A DNA stretch of 35,527 nt. It comes from a virus. Lineage: Duplodnaviria > Heunggongvirae > Uroviricota > Caudoviricetes. Positions within the stretch are counted from its first letter, which is position 1; each line of letters opens with the position of its first letter. Positions 19,358 through 25,080 of this stretch are shown one piece after another. The stretch lies in IMG/VR virus record IMGVR_UViG_2734482778_000013, positions 1 to 35,527 of that record; one strand, 5' to 3'. The notes beneath the pieces are model-generated. The model ran no database searches and was not told where the DNA came from. It worked only from the letters and a program-made list of their open reading frames with translations. The translations under genes were made by a program, and so were the position numbers.

Positions 19358-20067
19358 CGCGCCCCGTGATTAACGAGTCACAACTCCGGCAGGTTCGCCG
19401 CGCCATCAGAGAGGCAGAACTTCCGCCGGCAAAGGCCAGAAAGCTGCTGGTTCGCATTGCGAAATACGGCCTGATACCGGCTGCACGACGCAATGTGAAA
19501 GCACAGCGAACACCGGAGGGGGCAGCCTGGGCACCACGAAAAAGACCGGATAAAGCCAGCGGCAGGTATAAAAACAAAATGCTGCTGGGACTGCCGAAAC
19601 TGCTGGCCATCAAGGTTGACGGCAGCGGGAAAAGTGTCCGCCTTTTCTTCAAAAAAGGGGATTACAACACCGGCTCTCATGGCGGGGCGGTCGCGTGGGT
19701 GCAACAGCACGGCGCAACCATCAAAGGCCGCGCAACAAAACGCCGGAACAGCGAAGCCATGCGCACTCGTCCCGCCACACGACGGCAGGCAGAACGCCTT
19801 CTTTCTCTGGGCTTTCGCGCCCCCGTCGGCGCAGTCAGCAAAAAAACCGGACGCAGGGGACGCAGAAAGCCTTCCCTGAAATGGATTATGGAAAACATGA
19901 GTATGGCGCAGGCCGGGCTGGTGATCAGCATTCTGAAAGGCGAACAGAAAAAACGTGTATGGGAAATCAAAATTCCCTCCCGCGCATTTCTGGGAGCCAG
20001 TAACGCTGAATTTGCCCGCATTCTGGAGGCGCAATTGCGCAGCCTGCATTACGGCGGCACGAGATAA
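19354..20067 (+). CDS. S: Virion morphogenesis/tail completion protein (P2 gpS-like)
   Basis: PEGAAWAPRKRP motif parallels gpS-family PDGTPWAPL; ATGA overlap with R; basic central insertion. Confidence 0.65.
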   Translation: MTRPVINESQLRQVRRAIREAELPPAKARKLLVRIAKYGLIPAARRNVKAQRTPEGAAWAPRKRPDKASGRYKNKMLLGLPKLLAIKVDGSGKSVRLFFKKGDYNTGSHGGAVAWVQQHGATIKGRATKRRNSEAMRTRPATRRQAERLLSLGFRAPVGAVSKKTGRRGRRKPSLKWIMENMSMAQAGLVISILKGEQKKRVWEIKIPSRAFLGASNAEFARILEAQLRSLHYGGTR

Positions 20068-20086
20068 CAAAATCAGGAGACAAATT

Positions 20087-21235
20087 ATGACCTGGCCATC
20101 TGTCACAATTGAACAGTACAACACGTTCAGTAGCTCGCCGGACGGCGTGGAAAATACGCTGCTGTTTGTGGGCAATGCACAAAACAACAAAGGTAAGGTT
20201 CTGCCGGTTAATGCCAACAGCGATCTGGATGAACTGCTGGGAACGAACGCCAGCCCGCTGAAGAATTTCCTTCAGTCCGCACTGACCAATGCCGGACAGA
20301 ATGCCTTTTTCTATGTTGCCGTTCTGCCGGAAGCAGGCAGGGGCAAAGAAGCGACGCCAGCCTGCCAGGCATGGCAGAACGCCGTACTGGCGGCTCAGGA
20401 AACTGTTTCAGTTGAAGGCGCGGTGATCACCGAACCAGTCAGCACGAAGGATGACATCAACGCCATACAGGCGTTACGTCAGACCATCATCAATAAATAT
20501 CAGCGCCGCATATGGTTCATCCTGACCATCGCCGCCAACGACAACAGTAAAACCTGGGCGGAATACGTTGCCGAACTGACCACGCTACAGAAAGGCATTG
20601 CAGCTCCGCAGGTCATGCTGGTTCCGGAGATTTTTGGATTTGAACCGGGCGTTCTTGCCGGTCGTCTGTGTAACAGCGCCGTCACCATTGCTGACAGTCC
20701 GGCACGTGTGGCAACCGGGGCCCTGTCCGCACTGAAAACCACAGAACGCCCGAAAGACAGCGCAGGGCAGGCAATTGATCTCGCCACCCTGCAGGCACTG
20801 GCAGCCGCCCGCTACAGCGTGCCCATGTGGTATGCCGACTATGACGGCCTTTACTGGGCCGACGGCGTGACACTTGAGGTTGAAGGCGGGGACTACAACG
20901 TCATTGAGCATGTCCGCATTGCTGATAAGGTGGCGCGCCGCGTACGGCTGATGGCCATCCCCAAAATTGCCGATCGCTCACTGAACAGCACACCAGGCAG
21001 CATTGCCGCACATGAAACGCTGTTTGCCCGCCCGCTGCGTACCATGGCGAAATCCACGCAAATTAACGGCATCACGTTTCCGGGCGAAGTGAAATCGCCA
21101 CAAAAAGGCGATGTGTCCATCACCTGGCAGGACGAAAAGACGGTCAGCATCAGCATTGTTGTCCGCCCTTACGCCTGCCCCAAAACCATCAAAGTGGGCA
21201 TTCAGCTGGACAAATCTCTGGAGGAGAACGCATGA
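20087..21235 (+). CDS. Contractile tail sheath protein
   Basis: 382 aa from ATG 20087 with AGGAGA RBS; directly followed by tube gene with ATGA overlap. Confidence 0.8.
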   Translation: MTWPSVTIEQYNTFSSSPDGVENTLLFVGNAQNNKGKVLPVNANSDLDELLGTNASPLKNFLQSALTNAGQNAFFYVAVLPEAGRGKEATPACQAWQNAVLAAQETVSVEGAVITEPVSTKDDINAIQALRQTIINKYQRRIWFILTIAANDNSKTWAEYVAELTTLQKGIAAPQVMLVPEIFGFEPGVLAGRLCNSAVTIADSPARVATGALSALKTTERPKDSAGQAIDLATLQALAAARYSVPMWYADYDGLYWADGVTLEVEGGDYNVIEHVRIADKVARRVRLMAIPKIADRSLNSTPGSIAAHETLFARPLRTMAKSTQINGITFPGEVKSPQKGDVSITWQDEKTVSISIVVRPYACPKTIKVGIQLDKSLEENA

Positions 21236-21687
21236 CAACCCGCATTAACGGCATGGCCTTTGATGTTTATGTTGGCGGAACGGATATCCGCGTAAAAAAC
21301 ATTTCGCTGGATATCAGCGACGAAAGCGCCGTGGCCAAAACCCGTGGCATCCCTGACGGCAAACTGCGCGGCCCCGTCAGTGCCGAAGGTGAAATCGAAA
21401 TGAGCACCCGCAGTTTTAACCAGCTCGGGGAAGCGGCCGCTCAGGCGGGATCGTGGCGTGACCTGCCATCAATGGATTTTGTGTTCTACGCCAACACAGG
21501 CACCGAAGAAATCCGCGTTGAAGTCTTCGGATGTGAGCTGATGCTTTCGAACCTGTTAAGCATTGACACCGAGAGCGCGGATCTGACCACGCACAAAATC
21601 AAGTACGTGGTGGCAAGCCCTGACTTTGTACGTATCAACGGCGTGCCCGTTCTCTCAGAGAACGACGTGCGCGGGCTGATGGGGTGA
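21232..21687 (+). CDS. Tail tube protein
   Basis: 151 aa; position immediately after sheath. Confidence 0.75.
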   Translation: MTTRINGMAFDVYVGGTDIRVKNISLDISDESAVAKTRGIPDGKLRGPVSAEGEIEMSTRSFNQLGEAAAQAGSWRDLPSMDFVFYANTGTEEIRVEVFGCELMLSNLLSIDTESADLTTHKIKYVVASPDFVRINGVPVLSENDVRGLMG

Positions 21688-21690
21688 ACC

Positions 21691-21987
21691 ATGCAGGAGC
21701 ATGAGCGCACCATTATCACCCTGGGCATTCTGGGCGGAATCGCTGCTGCAAGTCGGGTGCTGGCTGGCGCAGAGCCGATTACGTTGCGGTTGTTTGTGGG
21801 CCGAACCCTGCTGGGGAGCGCGCTGGGGGTTTCTGCCGCCGCCCTGCTGGTTCGTTACCCGAACCTTGACCCACTGGCCATTGCCGGCGCAGGTACCGCA
21901 ATGGGCGTTGCCGGTTACCAGATTGTGGAAATCTTCCTGCGCCACATGCGTCGGAAGCTGGACGAAAAAGAGAACAAAGAGGAGTAA
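21691..21987 (+). CDS. Holin (class I-like, three predicted TM helices)
   Basis: 98 aa with three hydrophobic segments and a charged C-terminus RHMRRKLDEKENKEE; immediately upstream of endolysin. Confidence 0.7.
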   Translation: MQEHERTIITLGILGGIAAASRVLAGAEPITLRLFVGRTLLGSALGVSAAALLVRYPNLDPLAIAGAGTAMGVAGYQIVEIFLRHMRRKLDEKENKEE

Positions 21988-21992
21988 CCGCA

Positions 21993-22076
21993 ATGCAGTC
22001 CCGCAGGGATCAGAAAGCCGCTGCCATTGTCTGGAAAATTATCCGGGCGTTGTGGCGCTGGTTGCGTAAACCTTAA
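21993..22076 (+). CDS. Candidate 27-aa basic peptide between holin and endolysin
   Basis: GGAG RBS 8 nt upstream; MQSRRDQKAAAIVWKIIRALWRWLRKP; below ORF-track cutoff. Confidence 0.25.
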   Translation: MQSRRDQKAAAIVWKIIRALWRWLRKP

Positions 22077-22096
22077 CAACCCCGTAAGGAGCAAAA

Positions 22097-22438
22097 ATGA
22101 AACTCTCCGATAAGCAACAACAATTTACCGTCATGATCGGAAAACTCATCCAGTTTGCCCATCAGCGCGGTTATGGCCTGACGTTCGGTGAGGCGTACCG
22201 CACGCCAGAACAGGCAAAACTCAACGCACAAAAGGGATCAGGCATCGCCAATAGTCTGCACTGTCAGCGACTGGCGGTGGACTTTAATCTGTTTATTAAC
22301 GGTGAATACCAGACCCGCACAGAGGCTTACCGCGAACTGGGCGAGTACTGGGAATCCCTTGGCGGTTCATGGGGCGGTCGTTTTAAAAACCGCCCGGATG
22401 GCAATCATTTCAGCCTTGAGCACGACGGCGTGCGCTGA
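22097..22438 (+). CDS. Endolysin, peptidase M15 family (zinc L-alanyl-D-glutamate/D-Ala-D-Ala peptidase-like)
   Basis: Metal-ligand motifs SLHCQRLAVDF and DGNHFSLEH; AAGGAG RBS; adjacent to holin. Confidence 0.75.
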   Translation: MKLSDKQQQFTVMIGKLIQFAHQRGYGLTFGEAYRTPEQAKLNAQKGSGIANSLHCQRLAVDFNLFINGEYQTRTEAYRELGEYWESLGGSWGGRFKNRPDGNHFSLEHDGVR

Positions 22439-22505: not shown

Positions 22506-22796
22506 ATGATGAACGATAAAAACACCCAGACTACCGCAGAAAACGCCATCACTTTACAGGTCGGTGAACATGAGCTGACGTTTATCCCGACCGTTAAAGC
22601 CTACAACGAACTACAGAACGACTTCATGCCGGATAACAAAATCGCGCCGCTGAAAAACTACCTGCGCCGCATCGTGATTAAAGAGCACCGCGATCTGTTG
22701 AACCAGTTGCTGGAAAAACCGGGAATGCCGGCCAGTCTGGCAACTGCCGTGAATAACGAGTTTGTGCCGGAAGTGGAAATCACCGTAAAAAAATAA
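22506..22796 (+). CDS. Tail assembly chaperone (P2 gpE-like position)
   Basis: 96 aa located between tube/lysis genes and tape measure gene; ends at slippery A7 tract. Confidence 0.6.
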   Translation: MMNDKNTQTTAENAITLQVGEHELTFIPTVKAYNELQNDFMPDNKIAPLKNYLRRIVIKEHRDLLNQLLEKPGMPASLATAVNNEFVPEVEITVKK

Positions 22797-22984
22797 AAAG
22801 CCATCTGGGGGCCATTGATCGCAATGACCTTACCCGGATGCTGATCCTGCGCCGCCACTGGCTGCCCGGCGAGGATGACTCGCCGCAGTCACTGGCTGCC
22901 GCCGTCTGGCTGGATAACCACTACTGGGAAAATATGAGCATCGCCGTCAATAACGGCATTATCCGTGCTTTTAAGGGATCGTAA
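22506..22984 (+). CDS. Tail assembly chaperone -1 frameshift fusion product (gpE+E'-like)
   Basis: Slippery heptamer A AAA AAA at 22787-22793 directly before the 0-frame stop; -1 frame is open for 63 codons and terminates at 22982-22984, overlapping the tape measure ATG. Confidence 0.55.
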
Positions 22985-25080
22985 TGTCACAACAGCGCCT
23001 TGAATTACTTCTTGAACTGACAGACCGCCTGACAAGGCCGTTGCGTGCAGCCGGGCGACAGGTTCAGGGATTTGCTGCAACAAGTCGGGGAGCCTTTCGG
23101 GACATTGCTACCGGGGGCGCTGCGCTTTGGGGAGTGGGGGCAGCCATTCAGGGGGCACTGATGCCAGCCATTGAAATGGACAGGGCGCTCGGTGAGGTGA
23201 AATCACTGGGCGTCGCAGAGTCCGGATTGCGTAAACTCAGCCGCGCCGCCGTTGATTTCACTATGGAATACGGCGGGGCTGCGCAGGATTTTGTGCGTGC
23301 TTCTTACGACATCCAGTCAGCCATTGCCGGGTTAACTGACGATGAGCTGTCCCGCTTCACCACCGCATCAGCAACGGTGGCAGCAGCAACCAAATCCAGC
23401 AGCCAGACCATTACCGCCTACATGGGCACCATGTACGGCATCTTTAAAGACCAGGCTGATGCCATGGGAAAAAGCAAATGGGTGGAGCAGGTCGCCGGGC
23501 AAACCGCCACCGCCGTACAAATGTTTAAAACAACCGGCGATAACATGTCAGCGGCGTTCACCACGCTGGGTGCCAGTGCAAAAGCGGCCGGTATTGATGC
23601 GGCTGAACAGTTCGCCGTGCTGGGACAACTGCAGGCCACCATGAGTGGCAGCGAGGCCGGGACAAAGTACAAGGCATTTCTTGCCGCAGTAGGCAGCGCC
23701 CAGAAAAAGCTGGGGCTTAATTTCGTGAATAAAGACGGCACGATGAAAAGTGTTGTCGAGATCATGAAACTTATCAGGGGTAAATTTGGTGATCTGTCAA
23801 AAGTGGCTGATTCCGATTTGCTGAAAAGCGCCTTTGGCTCCGATGAAGCTGTGGCCATGATTAAATTACTCAATGCGGACATTGGCGGACTGGAAAAGAA
23901 TATCGCCACGCTGGGCAATATCAAAGGTATGGATAAGGCTGTCGAAATGGCACAAGCCATGGCCGATCCGTGGGAACAGGCCGCTGCTATTATTAACGGC
24001 ATTCGCATTGAAATTGGCACACAACTGTTGCCCGTTCTGTATCCATTCATCCAGAAAAGCAACGAAGGCGGTAAATCCTTTGTTGCCTGGTTGCGTCTGT
24101 ATCCAAACATCACACGTGCAATCGGCTTATTAAGCGCGGCACTTATTGGTGTTGCGGCGGTTGGCGCAACGGTCAATATCGTAATGGGGGTGGCGAAATT
24201 TATCTGGGTGGGATTACGCATAGTCTGGATGGCCGCAATCGCACCACTGAAATTAATCATCTTTCTGTATCGCGCCCTGAAAGTGGTTATGCTGGCGTTC
24301 TGTGCTACTGCCCGCATGGTCAGGGCATTATATCTGGCGATGAGTATCGCCATGGGGGCGCACAATGTCAGGGCCAAAATTCAGATTGCACTGCTGAAAC
24401 TGCAACGCGTCGGTATGTGGCTTTATTCTGCCGCACTGGGCGCTGCAGCTGTGGCCATGAAAATTTATACCGCTGTTACCGGTGGCGCAGCCGTTGCCAC
24501 TCAGCTACTTTTCAGCCCGATAACGTTAATCATCCTGGCACTGGCTGCGCTGGGCGTGGGCATTTATTTTCTGATTACCCGCTGGGATGAGATCAAAGCT
24601 GCACTGATGGATACAGCCGCTTTTCAGTGGGTAACCAGTGTCATAAAAAATATAGCTGTATGGTTCGGAAATACCTGGAAAGGCATTAAAAGCGGCTGGG
24701 ATGCCGTTATTAATTATTTTTCCACCCGCTCACCACTGGAAATATTTCAGGATTATGTCCGTCTGATTAATAAATTATTTTCAGGACTATGGCGCACAAT
24801 TATCGGTATGTTCAGCTCAGCATTCAGATGGATTGCTGACAAGCTGAATATGCTCCCGGGTATAAATATTGATGTACCAGAAATTACAGATAATAGTGAG
24901 GGTTCTGTATTAACCGGTGGAAAAGTCATTAGCGCCGGGCCAGGTGGCATTGCGGCAAAAATGCAAAATAACAGCGACAGCCAGACCACAATTGATAACT
25001 CCCGTCGCGTGGTCAATGTCAATGTGCAGGATGCGTCCCCGGCCCACCTTAATGAATGGATGGAGCTGCATGCATACTGA
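22984..25080 (+). CDS. Tail tape measure protein
   Basis: 698 aa; Ala/Gly-rich with hydrophobic central segments; follows chaperone frameshift pair. Confidence 0.85.
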   Translation: MSQQRLELLLELTDRLTRPLRAAGRQVQGFAATSRGAFRDIATGGAALWGVGAAIQGALMPAIEMDRALGEVKSLGVAESGLRKLSRAAVDFTMEYGGAAQDFVRASYDIQSAIAGLTDDELSRFTTASATVAAATKSSSQTITAYMGTMYGIFKDQADAMGKSKWVEQVAGQTATAVQMFKTTGDNMSAAFTTLGASAKAAGIDAAEQFAVLGQLQATMSGSEAGTKYKAFLAAVGSAQKKLGLNFVNKDGTMKSVVEIMKLIRGKFGDLSKVADSDLLKSAFGSDEAVAMIKLLNADIGGLEKNIATLGNIKGMDKAVEMAQAMADPWEQAAAIINGIRIEIGTQLLPVLYPFIQKSNEGGKSFVAWLRLYPNITRAIGLLSAALIGVAAVGATVNIVMGVAKFIWVGLRIVWMAAIAPLKLIIFLYRALKVVMLAFCATARMVRALYLAMSIAMGAHNVRAKIQIALLKLQRVGMWLYSAALGAAAVAMKIYTAVTGGAAVATQLLFSPITLIILALAALGVGIYFLITRWDEIKAALMDTAAFQWVTSVIKNIAVWFGNTWKGIKSGWDAVINYFSTRSPLEIFQDYVRLINKLFSGLWRTIIGMFSSAFRWIADKLNMLPGINIDVPEITDNSEGSVLTGGKVISAGPGGIAAKMQNNSDSQTTIDNSRRVVNVNVQDASPAHLNEWMELHAY

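What the first reader, a model, noticed from the sequence alone, without database searches (positions are those of the whole stretch)
22506..22984. Programmed -1 frameshift in the tail assembly chaperone
The 96-aa chaperone ORF ends in a perfect slippery heptamer A AAA AAA (22787-22793) immediately before its stop. The -1 frame then stays open for 63 codons and terminates exactly at the tape measure start codon, the conserved G/GT (E/E') arrangement. It is not evident from the ORF track.
Basis: partly seen in the sequence, partly recalled or inferred. Interest (0 to 1): 0.5.

Follow-up and report, generated by a model that had tools for sequence, protein, structure and literature searches.

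The report
Tail chaperone −1 frameshift, HP1-type prophage
The small tail-assembly chaperone gene of this HP1/P2-like prophage ends in a run of seven A's where some ribosomes very probably slip back one base to make a longer second protein; this trick is well known in tailed phages, but databases do not annotate it for this family.

Summary
ORF 22506-22796 (96 aa, Pfam Phage_TAC_10) ends ...GTA AAA AAA TAA. The heptamer A_AAA_AAA (22787-22793) abuts the stop. The −1 frame then runs 63 codons to TAA 22982-22984, overlapping the tape-measure ATG (TAATG).

In 166 related loci, found mainly through a motif in the −1 domain, that domain lies in the −1 frame in 160. 159 end the chaperone ORF with NTA AAA AA(C/A) plus stop. 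Among 140 distinct loci:
- Seven nucleotides are invariant.
- The codon before the run is always NTA, whatever the amino acid.
- Third-position variability switches from frame 0 to frame −1 exactly at the heptamer.
- 57 loci have no ATG anywhere in the extension.

The window's internal ATG (22838), which RefSeq uses to call a separate 48-aa "DUF6890" gene in a 91%-identical E. coli prophage, has no Shine-Dalgarno match and is paired inside a predicted hairpin (22799-22842). That hairpin starts 5 nt after the heptamer.

This is a new, unannotated member of the known G/GT (P2 E/E+E') type of tail-chaperone frameshift. It is analogous to P2's but has no detectable homology to it. No protein evidence exists; efficiency and the roles of the stop and hairpin are inferred. 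Interest is modest.

The parts
22506..22796 (+). Frame-0 tail assembly chaperone ORF (the 'G'-like product, 96 aa; 95 aa if started at ATG 22509)
   Evidence: Translation. Pfam PF10963 Phage_TAC_10 over residues 15-96, E 4.8e-26. PHROG 1214. Shine-Dalgarno-like AAAGGAA upstream of the start.
22787..22793 (+). Slippery heptamer A_AAA_AAA, in X_XXY_YYZ phase relative to frame 0
   Evidence: Homologous position is NTA AAA AA(C/A) in 159 of 166 loci. Seven nucleotides are invariant in 140 distinct loci. The codon before the run is always NTA.
22794..22796 (+). Frame-0 stop codon TAA, directly abutting the heptamer (possible 'shifty stop' contributor)
   Evidence: A stop follows the heptamer immediately in 159 of 159 canonical loci; among the 140 distinct loci TAA 70, TGA 47, TAG 23. 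A role in the shift is inferred.
22793..22984 (+). −1 frame extension (the 'T'-like part): 63 codons 22793-22981 plus stop 22982-22984. Proposed fusion CDS = join(22506..22793, 22793..22984), 159 aa
   Evidence: Residues 115-158 of the fusion match Pfam PF21830 DUF6890 (4.5e-23) and PHROG 7050. Codon periodicity in the −1 frame starts right after the heptamer. Fusion products of 7 phages align without a gap across the junction.
22799..22842 (+). Predicted RNA hairpin starting 5 nt after the heptamer (candidate frameshift stimulator); it also sequesters the internal ATG
   Evidence: MFE −19.5 kcal/mol, z −2.7 to −3.0 against dinucleotide shuffles. z −4.3 against synonymous recodings of the same peptide. 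Pair list. Nearly invariant in the close clade. No family-wide consensus structure.
22769..22776 (+). Shine-Dalgarno-like GGAAGUGG, 10 nt upstream of the heptamer (possible upstream stimulator, weak evidence)
   Evidence: −7.6 kcal/mol duplex with the 16S 3' end in the window. Family-wide enrichment at this position is only about 1.5 SD.
22838..22984 (+). 48-aa ORF from the internal ATG. The equivalent ORF in a 91%-identical RefSeq E. coli prophage is annotated as a separate 'DUF6890 family protein'. Here it is judged to be the C-terminal part of the frameshift product, not a separate gene
   Evidence: RefSeq annotation of that prophage. No Shine-Dalgarno match, 0 kcal against −5.2 to −9.3 for neighbouring genes, and the ATG is paired in the hairpin. 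The homologous column is Met in only 34 of 140 loci. 57 of 140 loci have no ATG in the extension.
22984..25080 (+). Tail tape measure protein gene; its ATG overlaps the stop of the −1 extension (TAATG)
   Evidence: Pfam PF10145 and PHROG 28. In relatives the tape-measure ATG lies at −3, 0 or +7 nt from the −1 stop in 107 of 140 loci.

Best explanation

- Most ribosomes translate 22506-22796 and terminate at TAA, giving the 96-aa chaperone.
- A minority slip back one base on A_AAA_AAA (22787-22793), with tRNA-Lys re-pairing perfectly on AAA.
- The slip happens either as a tandem P/A-site slip, or as a P-site slip while the adjacent stop codon waits in the A site.
- Those ribosomes continue in the −1 frame for 63 codons to the TAA that overlaps the tape-measure ATG. 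This gives a 159-aa fusion: chaperone domain plus DUF6890 domain, with junction ...EITVKK-IKSHLGAIDRN...

By analogy with lambda gpG/gpGT and P2 E/E+E', the short form would coat the tape measure protein and the rare long form would recruit the tail tube protein.

A hairpin 5 nt downstream (22799-22842) probably raises the shift frequency and blocks independent initiation at ATG 22838.

Shown here: the sequence geometry, family assignment, conservation, nucleotide-level selection on the heptamer, and coding constraint in the −1 frame from the slip site onward. Inferred: that the fusion protein is made, its frequency, its role in tail assembly, and the contributions of the stop codon, the hairpin and the SD-like element.
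For: 1. Geometry is exact.
2. Gene context is sheath, tube, holin, endolysin, chaperone, tape measure, baseplate. The frame-0 ORF is Pfam Phage_TAC_10.
3. tblastn of the hypothetical fusion finds 76 phage records, all as two pieces in two frames.
4. In 166 loci with both halves, the second domain is in the −1 frame in 160. 159 end frame 0 with NTA AAA AA(C/A) plus stop. The 80 genome loci among them were found only through a motif in the −1 domain, so they were not selected on the slip site.
5. Nucleotide-level selection:
   - The codon before the run is GTA 106/106 Val, ATA 26/26 Ile and CTA 8/8 Leu. Neighbouring columns use ATA for 3 of 137 Ile and CTA for 0 of 118 Leu.
   - Lys is AAA in 140 of 140, against AAA 33 and AAG 24 in a nearby Lys column.
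   - Column entropy is zero over 7 nt.
6. Third-position variability switches from frame 0 to frame −1 right at the heptamer: 0.83/0.90/1.58 bits over the 42 nt that precede the window's internal ATG column.
7. Residues just after the junction are conserved (A-I-E/D-x-N), and fusions align without a gap.
8. 105 of 140 loci have no ATG in the first 19 −1 codons and 57 of 140 have none at all. The window's ATG has no SD and is paired in the hairpin.
9. One relative (L025) has A8, which gives an in-frame fusion with exactly the predicted junction.
10. The −1 ORF ends at or next to the tape-measure start in most loci, as in P2, whose record annotates the frameshift.
11. Hairpin evidence:
   - Window z is −2.7 to −3.0 against dinucleotide shuffles and −4.3 against synonymous recoding.
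   - The strongest positional folding excess across 56 diverse loci lies 0-9 nt after the heptamer.
   - A Vibrio-clade hairpin is 83% paired, with some compensatory changes.
Against: - There is no protein, ribosome-profiling or reporter evidence.
- A_AAA_AAA and A_AAA_AAC are much less shift-prone in E. coli than A_AAA_AAG (review PMC5009743), so the yield may be low.
- RNAalifold finds no family-wide consensus structure.
- Only 16 of 56 diverse loci pass the synonymous-recoding test. The hairpin is therefore not a universal requirement.
- One relative (L103) has a substituted heptamer, A_AAG_AAA.
- The same fusion could in principle come from RNA polymerase slippage on the A run.
- The structure models were of low confidence and give no support.
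Confidence: 0.87

Rival explanations
1. Transcriptional slippage. RNA polymerase adds one extra A while copying the A7 run, giving a subpopulation of mRNAs in which chaperone and DUF6890 are in frame. The protein product is identical, but the step that shifts is transcription rather than translation.
For: The site is a homopolymer run, and an inserted A gives exactly the same 159-aa fusion. A natural A8 variant (L025) shows the fused reading is tolerated at the DNA level. Homopolymer-length variants exist among relatives (L025 A8, L062 A5).
Against: About 70% of relatives have only six A's followed by C (112 of 159; 103 of 140 distinct loci). From my own knowledge of the literature, not tested here, that is short for productive RNA polymerase slippage, where efficient bacterial cases use about 9 or more. 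The run always sits in X_XXY_YYZ phase with A fixed at the synonymous X position. The downstream hairpin at a 5-7 nt spacer, and the stop that always abuts the site, fit a ribosomal mechanism.
Confidence: 0.06
2. Two independent genes, as RefSeq annotates the related E. coli prophage. The chaperone terminates at 22796, and a separate 48-aa DUF6890 protein is initiated at ATG 22838. There is no fusion product.
For: PGAP calls the equivalent ORF in a 91%-identical E. coli prophage as a CDS. Pfam DUF6890 and PHROG 7050 model only about the last 44-47 residues. Several phage records annotate a short second ORF.
Against: ATG 22838 has no Shine-Dalgarno match, while all neighbouring genes have one, and it is base-paired in the hairpin. 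The homologous column is Met in only 34 of 140 loci; 57 of 140 have no ATG anywhere in the extension and 54 of 140 have no ATG, GTG or TTG in its first 19 codons. The 15 codons upstream of that ATG are under protein-coding constraint in the −1 frame and carry conserved residues. This model does not explain the invariant heptamer or the fixed NTA codon.
Confidence: 0.04
3. Termination-reinitiation, or no function at all. Ribosomes stop at TAA and restart nearby in the −1 frame, or the −1 ORF is a conserved relic in a decaying prophage with no product.
For: The frame-0 stop and the beginning of the −1 coding constraint coincide. Some relatives are clearly decayed (L047, L048, L095, and the P0004 deletion).
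Against: The first −1 codons are CTA, CTG or ATA, which are not start codons. Reinitiation would not need A at the X position or AAA rather than AAG. The arrangement is kept in isolated, plaque-forming phages such as HP1, phiO18P, ESSI-2 and vB_YenM_324. The −1 ORF shows purifying selection.
Confidence: 0.03

Closest known systems
Bacteriophage P2 gpE / gpE+E' (Peduoviridae; −1 frameshift annotated in NC_001895)
   Same: Same virus family and same organisation. A chaperone ORF of about 90 aa lies just upstream of the tape measure gene. A homopolymeric heptamer sits near its end. A −1 extension of about 55-63 codons has its stop overlapping the tape-measure start. The fusion is 142 aa in P2 and 159 aa here.
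   Different: No detectable sequence homology. P2 is Phage_TAC_7 plus Phage_P2_GpE; this one is Phage_TAC_10 plus DUF6890. hhalign gives 0.2% probability. P2 uses T_TTT_TTG with the frame-0 stop 6 codons later; here A_AAA_AAA abuts the stop. Here a lysis cassette separates the tube and chaperone genes.
Phage lambda gpG / gpGT and the conserved tail-assembly frameshift of dsDNA tailed phages (Levin 1993; Xu, Hendrix and Duda 2004, as summarised in PMC5009743)
   Same: Two overlapping ORFs between the major tail and tape measure genes. A low-level −1 shift near the end of the first ORF. The second ORF has no start of its own. Proposed roles: the short form binds the tape measure and the long form links it to the tube protein.
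   Different: Lambda is a siphovirus. From my own knowledge, not checked here, its slip site is G_GGA_AAG, well upstream of the G stop. The protein families differ. The lambda ratio of about 30:1 is measured; here nothing is measured.
E. coli dnaX −1 frameshift signal (A_AAA_AAG with an upstream SD-like element and a downstream hairpin)
   Same: An A-rich heptamer decoded by tRNA-Lys. The window also has an SD-like GGAAGUGG 10 nt upstream and a stable hairpin 5 nt downstream. From my own knowledge, those are the spacings that act in dnaX.
   Different: Z is A (or C in relatives) and never G (0 of 159), which are the weaker variants in E. coli. The SD-like element is not conserved in the family. 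The outcome here is an extension rather than early termination.
IS1 insA-insB' −1 frameshift on A_AAA_AAC (from my own knowledge, not checked here)
   Same: Use of the A6C motif for low-level −1 frameshifting in enterobacteria. This is the motif of about 70% of this family (112 of 159 loci).
   Different: The system is unrelated (a transposase). The window itself carries A7, not A6C.

Membership tests
G/GT-type tail assembly chaperone frameshift of tailed phages | Two overlapping ORFs placed between the major tail (tube) gene and the tape measure gene | tested here: met
   Tube 21232-21687, chaperone 22506-22796, −1 ORF to 22984, tape measure 22984-25080. A holin and endolysin cassette is inserted between tube and chaperone.
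G/GT-type tail assembly chaperone frameshift of tailed phages | The upstream ORF is a tail assembly chaperone | tested here: met
   Pfam PF10963 Phage_TAC_10, 91.2 bits against a cut-off of 25.7. This is a family name, not a tested function.
G/GT-type tail assembly chaperone frameshift of tailed phages | A slippery sequence in the overlap, in the correct phase and conserved among relatives | tested here: met
   A_AAA_AAA in the window. A_AAA_AA(C/A) in 159 of 166 loci, with synonymous positions fixed.
G/GT-type tail assembly chaperone frameshift of tailed phages | The second ORF has no conserved initiation signal of its own and is coding from the slip site onward | tested here: met
   57 of 140 loci have no ATG in the extension. 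Periodicity switches at the heptamer. The window's ATG has no SD.
G/GT-type tail assembly chaperone frameshift of tailed phages | The fusion protein is actually made at a low fixed ratio, and both forms are required for tail assembly but absent from virions | not testable with these tools
   Needs expression, mass spectrometry and genetics.
P2 E/E+E' protein families (Phage_TAC_7 + Phage_P2_GpE) | Sequence homology to P2 gpE and to the E' domain | tested here: not met
   No Pfam hit to PF10109 or PF06528 at E up to 0.1, while P2 E+E' hits both. hhalign probability 0.2%.
P2 E/E+E' protein families (Phage_TAC_7 + Phage_P2_GpE) | The −1 extension ends overlapping the tape measure start codon | tested here: met
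   TAATG at 22982-22986. P2 E' overlaps T by 8 nt.
dnaX-type tripartite −1 frameshift signal | Downstream stem-loop at a 5-9 nt spacer that stimulates the shift | tested here: inconclusive
   The window hairpin has a 5-nt spacer, −19.5 kcal/mol, z −2.7 to −3.0 and −4.3. There is a positional excess across the family. There is no consensus structure, and only 16 of 56 loci are significant. Stimulation itself is untested.
dnaX-type tripartite −1 frameshift signal | Upstream SD-like element about 10 nt 5' of the heptamer | tested here: inconclusive
   Window GGAAGUGG gives −7.6 kcal/mol at a 10-nt spacing. Across the family the enrichment is only about 1.5 SD.
dnaX-type tripartite −1 frameshift signal | Heptamer A_AAA_AAG | tested here: not met
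   Z is A in the window and C or A in relatives; G occurs in 0 of 159.
Pfam DUF6890 as a stand-alone small protein | An independently initiated ORF of about 44-48 aa | tested here: not met
   The domain match is strong (4.5e-23), but a start codon at that position is not conserved (Met in 34 of 140). Conservation extends upstream to the slip site.

The most novel reading that the evidence does not exclude
The family may use a termination-coupled ('shifty stop') −1 frameshift rather than a plain tandem slip. Two features point that way. The frame-0 stop abuts the heptamer in 159 of 159 loci. The family uses only the weak heptamers A_AAA_AAC and A_AAA_AAA, never the strong A_AAA_AAG. If so, the ratio of short to long chaperone would be set by competition between release factor and slippage at the stop, tuned by clade-specific hairpins. 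The ratio would then respond to stop-codon identity and release-factor activity in the host. A further possibility is that DUF6890 is a very distant homologue of the P2 E' domain; the only hhalign patch is HW(L)P in both −1 domains.
Probability: 0.25. Interest if true: 0.45.

Novelty: new member of a known kind. Interest (0 to 1): 0.3.

Why it matters
**Annotation.** The frameshift product is missing from every record inspected: 10 phage records, including HP1, HP2, phiO18P and ESSI-2, plus a RefSeq E. coli prophage. Its C-terminal part is filed there as an unrelated "DUF6890 family protein" or as hypothetical. Recognising DUF6890 as the "T-like" domain of a G/GT pair gives a function to a domain of unknown function. 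It also corrects hundreds of prophage annotations across Enterobacterales, Vibrionaceae, Aeromonas and Pasteurellaceae.

**Biology.** The finding extends a well-known rule to one more chaperone family. It offers a compact natural test case, made of a weak heptamer, an abutting stop and a variable hairpin, for how low frameshift ratios are set. It does not change how tail assembly or recoding are understood.

Tried and rejected
- **Near-identity DNA search against phage genomes.** Found nothing useful. The relatives are prophages and distant phages, which were reached by protein search.
- **Literature.** No held paper describes the frameshift for the HP1 family or DUF6890. Xu et al. 2004 is not held, so I could not check whether HP1 is in their list.
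- **Family-wide consensus RNA structure.** RNAalifold on 56 sequences returned none. I replaced it with positional and synonymous-recoding tests and a clade-level pair count.
- **Covariation in the window's own clade.** Not possible, because the hairpin region is almost invariant there.
- **Homology to P2 E+E'.** Rejected.
- **Solved-structure sequence search.** Only chance-level hits, to ATP synthase b. NCBIfam gave nothing.
- **Structure prediction.** Models of the two parts separately had mean pLDDT 54.5 and 67.7. That is too low for a meaningful fold search, so none was run.
- **Single-window chance estimate.** Uninformative, because spurious ORFs overlap real genes.
- **P0004, listed with both Pfam domains.** It looked like a natural fusion but is a 185-nt deletion between 10-nt direct repeats.

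Full report
**1. What is in the sequence**

The ORF at 22506-22796 encodes 96 aa ending ...EITVKK*. In frame 0 its last codons read GTA AAA AAA TAA. The A7 run at 22787-22793 is therefore a phase-correct X_XXY_YYZ heptamer (A_AAA_AAA) that directly abuts the stop.

The −1 frame is open from about 12 codons upstream of that stop. After the heptamer it runs 63 codons (22793-22981) to TAA 22982-22984. The last base of that stop is the A of the tape-measure ATG (TAATG). The +1 frame closes within 10 codons. A −1 shift would give a 159-aa protein.

**2. Context**

The neighbouring genes are:
- a tail sheath gene (DUF2586 / PHROG 907);
- a tail tube gene (Pfam Phage_HP1_Orf24);
- a holin;
- an M15 endolysin;
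- this ORF (Pfam Phage_TAC_10, E 4.8e-26);
- the tape measure gene (PhageMin_Tail / PHROG 28);
- a DUF2590 gene (named so in the RefSeq annotation of the related prophage);
- baseplate J.

This is an HP1-like member of the Peduoviridae, present as a prophage. 42 complete E. coli genomes carry a copy that is 80-95% identical.

RefSeq annotates the chaperone there, plus a separate 48-aa "DUF6890 family protein" that starts at the ATG corresponding to window 22838. No slippage is annotated. Residues 115-158 of the hypothetical fusion match Pfam DUF6890 (4.5e-23) and PHROG 7050.

**3. Comparative test**

tblastn of the 159-aa fusion against 50,697 phage records gave 76 matches. All came as two joined pieces in different frames. 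The hosts were Haemophilus (HP1, HP2), Vibrio, Aeromonas, Pasteurella, Yersinia, Cronobacter, Salmonella, Pseudomonas and Pseudoalteromonas.

In seven records read in detail, frame 0 always ends GTA AAA AAC or AAA plus a stop. The −1 frame continues for 59-62 codons to within 0-25 nt of the tape-measure ATG. The seven fusion products align without a gap across the junction.

I then collected 160 more loci: 80 from IMG/VR and 80 from species-representative genomes. The genome loci were found only through a motif inside the −1 domain, so they were not selected on the slip site.

Of 166 loci with both halves, the second half is in the −1 frame in 160. 159 end frame 0 with NTA AAA AA(C/A) plus a stop.

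The exceptions are mostly indels:
- **L025** has A8, giving an in-frame fusion with exactly the predicted junction VKK-ID.
- **L062** has one A fewer.
- **L047, L048 and L095** have a chaperone domain broken by indels.
- **L026** has a divergent chaperone end, with a stop between the two halves in the same frame.
- **L103** has A_AAG_AAA.

**4. Selection at the nucleotide level**

The following counts are from 140 distinct canonical loci.

| Position | Observed at the slip site | Comparison in nearby columns |
|---|---|---|
| Codon before the run | GTA for all 106 Val, ATA for all 26 Ile, CTA for all 8 Leu | ATA for 3 of 137 Ile; CTA for 0 of 118 Leu |
| Lys codon | AAA in 140 of 140 | AAA 33, AAG 24 in a nearby Lys column |

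- Seven consecutive nucleotides have zero entropy.
- Upstream, mean entropy by codon position follows frame 0 (0.89/0.69/1.54).
- From 2 nt after the stop's first base it follows frame −1 (0.83/0.90/1.58). This is measured over the 42 nt that precede the column of the window's internal ATG.
- The −1 frame is therefore under protein-coding constraint from the slip site onward, with conserved residues (A-I-E/D-x-N) right after the junction.
- 105 of 140 loci have no ATG in the first 19 −1 codons, and 57 of 140 have none in the whole extension.
- The column of the window's Met is Ala, Met, Tyr or Val across the family (42, 34, 33 and 23 loci).
- The window's ATG 22838 has no complementarity to the anti-SD, whereas the five neighbouring starts give −5.2 to −9.3 kcal/mol. 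It is also base-paired in a hairpin.

Together these results reject the two-gene annotation and support a fusion made by shifting at the heptamer.

**5. Stimulatory elements**

In the window, a hairpin at 22799-22842 begins after a 5-nt spacer.
- Its MFE is −19.5 kcal/mol, with z −2.7 to −3.0 against dinucleotide shuffles.
- Against synonymous recodings of the same −1 peptide its z is −4.3.

Across 56 relatives that are under 90% identical to each other:
- RNAalifold finds no common structure.
- The strongest GC-corrected folding excess in the −240 to +600 range lies in 45-nt windows starting 0-9 nt after the heptamer. It is about −2.7 kcal/mol, or about 2.7 SD. One comparable spot lies at +135.
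- 16 of 56 loci beat 95% of their synonymous recodings, against 2-8 of 56 in control segments.

A Vibrio-clade hairpin with a 7-nt spacer is 83% paired, against 25-59% in slid registers. It shows three pairs with two-sided changes.

My reading is that clade-specific hairpins exist, that one is likely functional in the window, and that a hairpin is not universal. In the window's close clade the region is nearly invariant, so covariation cannot be judged there.

An SD-like GGAAGUGG lies 10 nt upstream in the window (−7.6 kcal/mol), but family-wide enrichment is weak.

The stop codon abuts the heptamer in every canonical locus. In P2 it lies six codons later. The family never uses A_AAA_AAG, which is the shiftiest form in E. 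coli (PMC5009743). I infer that this fits selection for a low shift ratio, possibly with a contribution from slow termination. It is not shown.

**6. Comparison with what is known**

The kind of system is well known: lambda G/GT and the conserved tail-assembly frameshift (PMC5009743), and P2 E/E+E', which is annotated as a joined CDS in NC_001895.

P2 E+E' is Phage_TAC_7 plus Phage_P2_GpE. The present protein is Phage_TAC_10 plus DUF6890. hhalign finds no relationship (0.2% probability). The finding is therefore analogous in organisation to P2 E/E', but it is not a detectable member of those protein families.

None of the 10 phage records inspected, nor the RefSeq prophage, annotates the slippage. 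I could not check whether Xu et al. 2004 listed HP1.

**7. Rival explanations**

Transcriptional slippage would give the same protein. It is disfavoured because most relatives have only A6C, and because of the fixed phase and the ribosome-type spacing of the hairpins.

Independent initiation and reinitiation are disfavoured by the start-codon, Shine-Dalgarno and heptamer evidence above.

**8. Verdict**

It is a new, unannotated member of a known kind. Its interest is modest and lies mainly in annotation: DUF6890 is the frameshift-encoded domain. The strictly stop-adjacent, weak-heptamer design is a secondary point.

Attempts at structure modelling gave low-confidence models and were not used.

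Noticed in passing
window 22661-22670 and 22846-22855: A 10-nt direct repeat CCTGCGCCGC codes Leu-Arg-Arg in frame 0 and again in frame −1. A Salmonella Montevideo protein (P0004, 96 aa, both Pfam domains) corresponds to a 185-nt deletion between these repeats. It fuses the chaperone N-part in frame to the DUF6890 domain.
   Followed up: partly
L025 about 1420-1460 (IMG/VR UViG 2767802213, Vibrio yong1-like); L062 about 1420-1450: Homopolymer-length variants at the slip site. L025 has A8, giving an in-frame chaperone-DUF6890 fusion with junction VKK-ID. L062 has A5C, which puts the second domain in the +1 frame. Whether these are real alleles or sequencing errors is unknown.
   Followed up: partly
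window 22787-22796 and the homologous sites in L002-L167: The family uses only A_AAA_AAC (112) or A_AAA_AAA (47) and never Z = G or T (0 of 159). The frame-0 stop always abuts the heptamer (159 of 159), whereas in P2 it lies 6 codons later. With Z = A the stop is TAA or TAG and never TGA.
   Followed up: partly
window 21691-22438: A lysis cassette sits between the tail tube gene and the chaperone gene, inside the tail operon: holin 21691-21987 and M15 metallopeptidase endolysin 22097-22438. HP1 and several relatives have the same layout, with different endolysin types and with or without spanins.
   Followed up: no
window 22769-22776: An SD-like GGAAGUGG lies 10 nt upstream of the heptamer. 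Its duplex with the 16S 3' end is −7.6 kcal/mol, as strong as the real ribosome-binding sites nearby. It is only weakly enriched in relatives.
   Followed up: partly
fusion residues 114-124 (window 22844-22876) versus P2 E+E' residues 108-118: The only patch that hhalign aligns between this family and P2 E+E' lies in the two −1 domains: ILRRHWLPGED versus AVIFHWPPSEL. It is not significant (E 0.36) but sits at a similar relative position. It may hint at very distant homology of the 'T-like' domains.
   Followed up: no
L103 about 1440-1455 (Citrobacter sp. FP75): This is the only relative with a substituted heptamer (GTA AAG AAA TAA) while the −1 ORF remains intact. It is either a weakened or defective site, or a tolerated variant in which GAA is read through a G·U pair after the slip.
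   Followed up: no
window 19955-21235: The ORF listing starts the sheath gene at GTG 19955 (426 aa), which overlaps the upstream morphogenesis gene by about 110 nt. The Pfam and PHROG matches begin at residue 45-47, and the RefSeq homologue is 382 aa. The true start is probably about 44 codons downstream.
   Followed up: no
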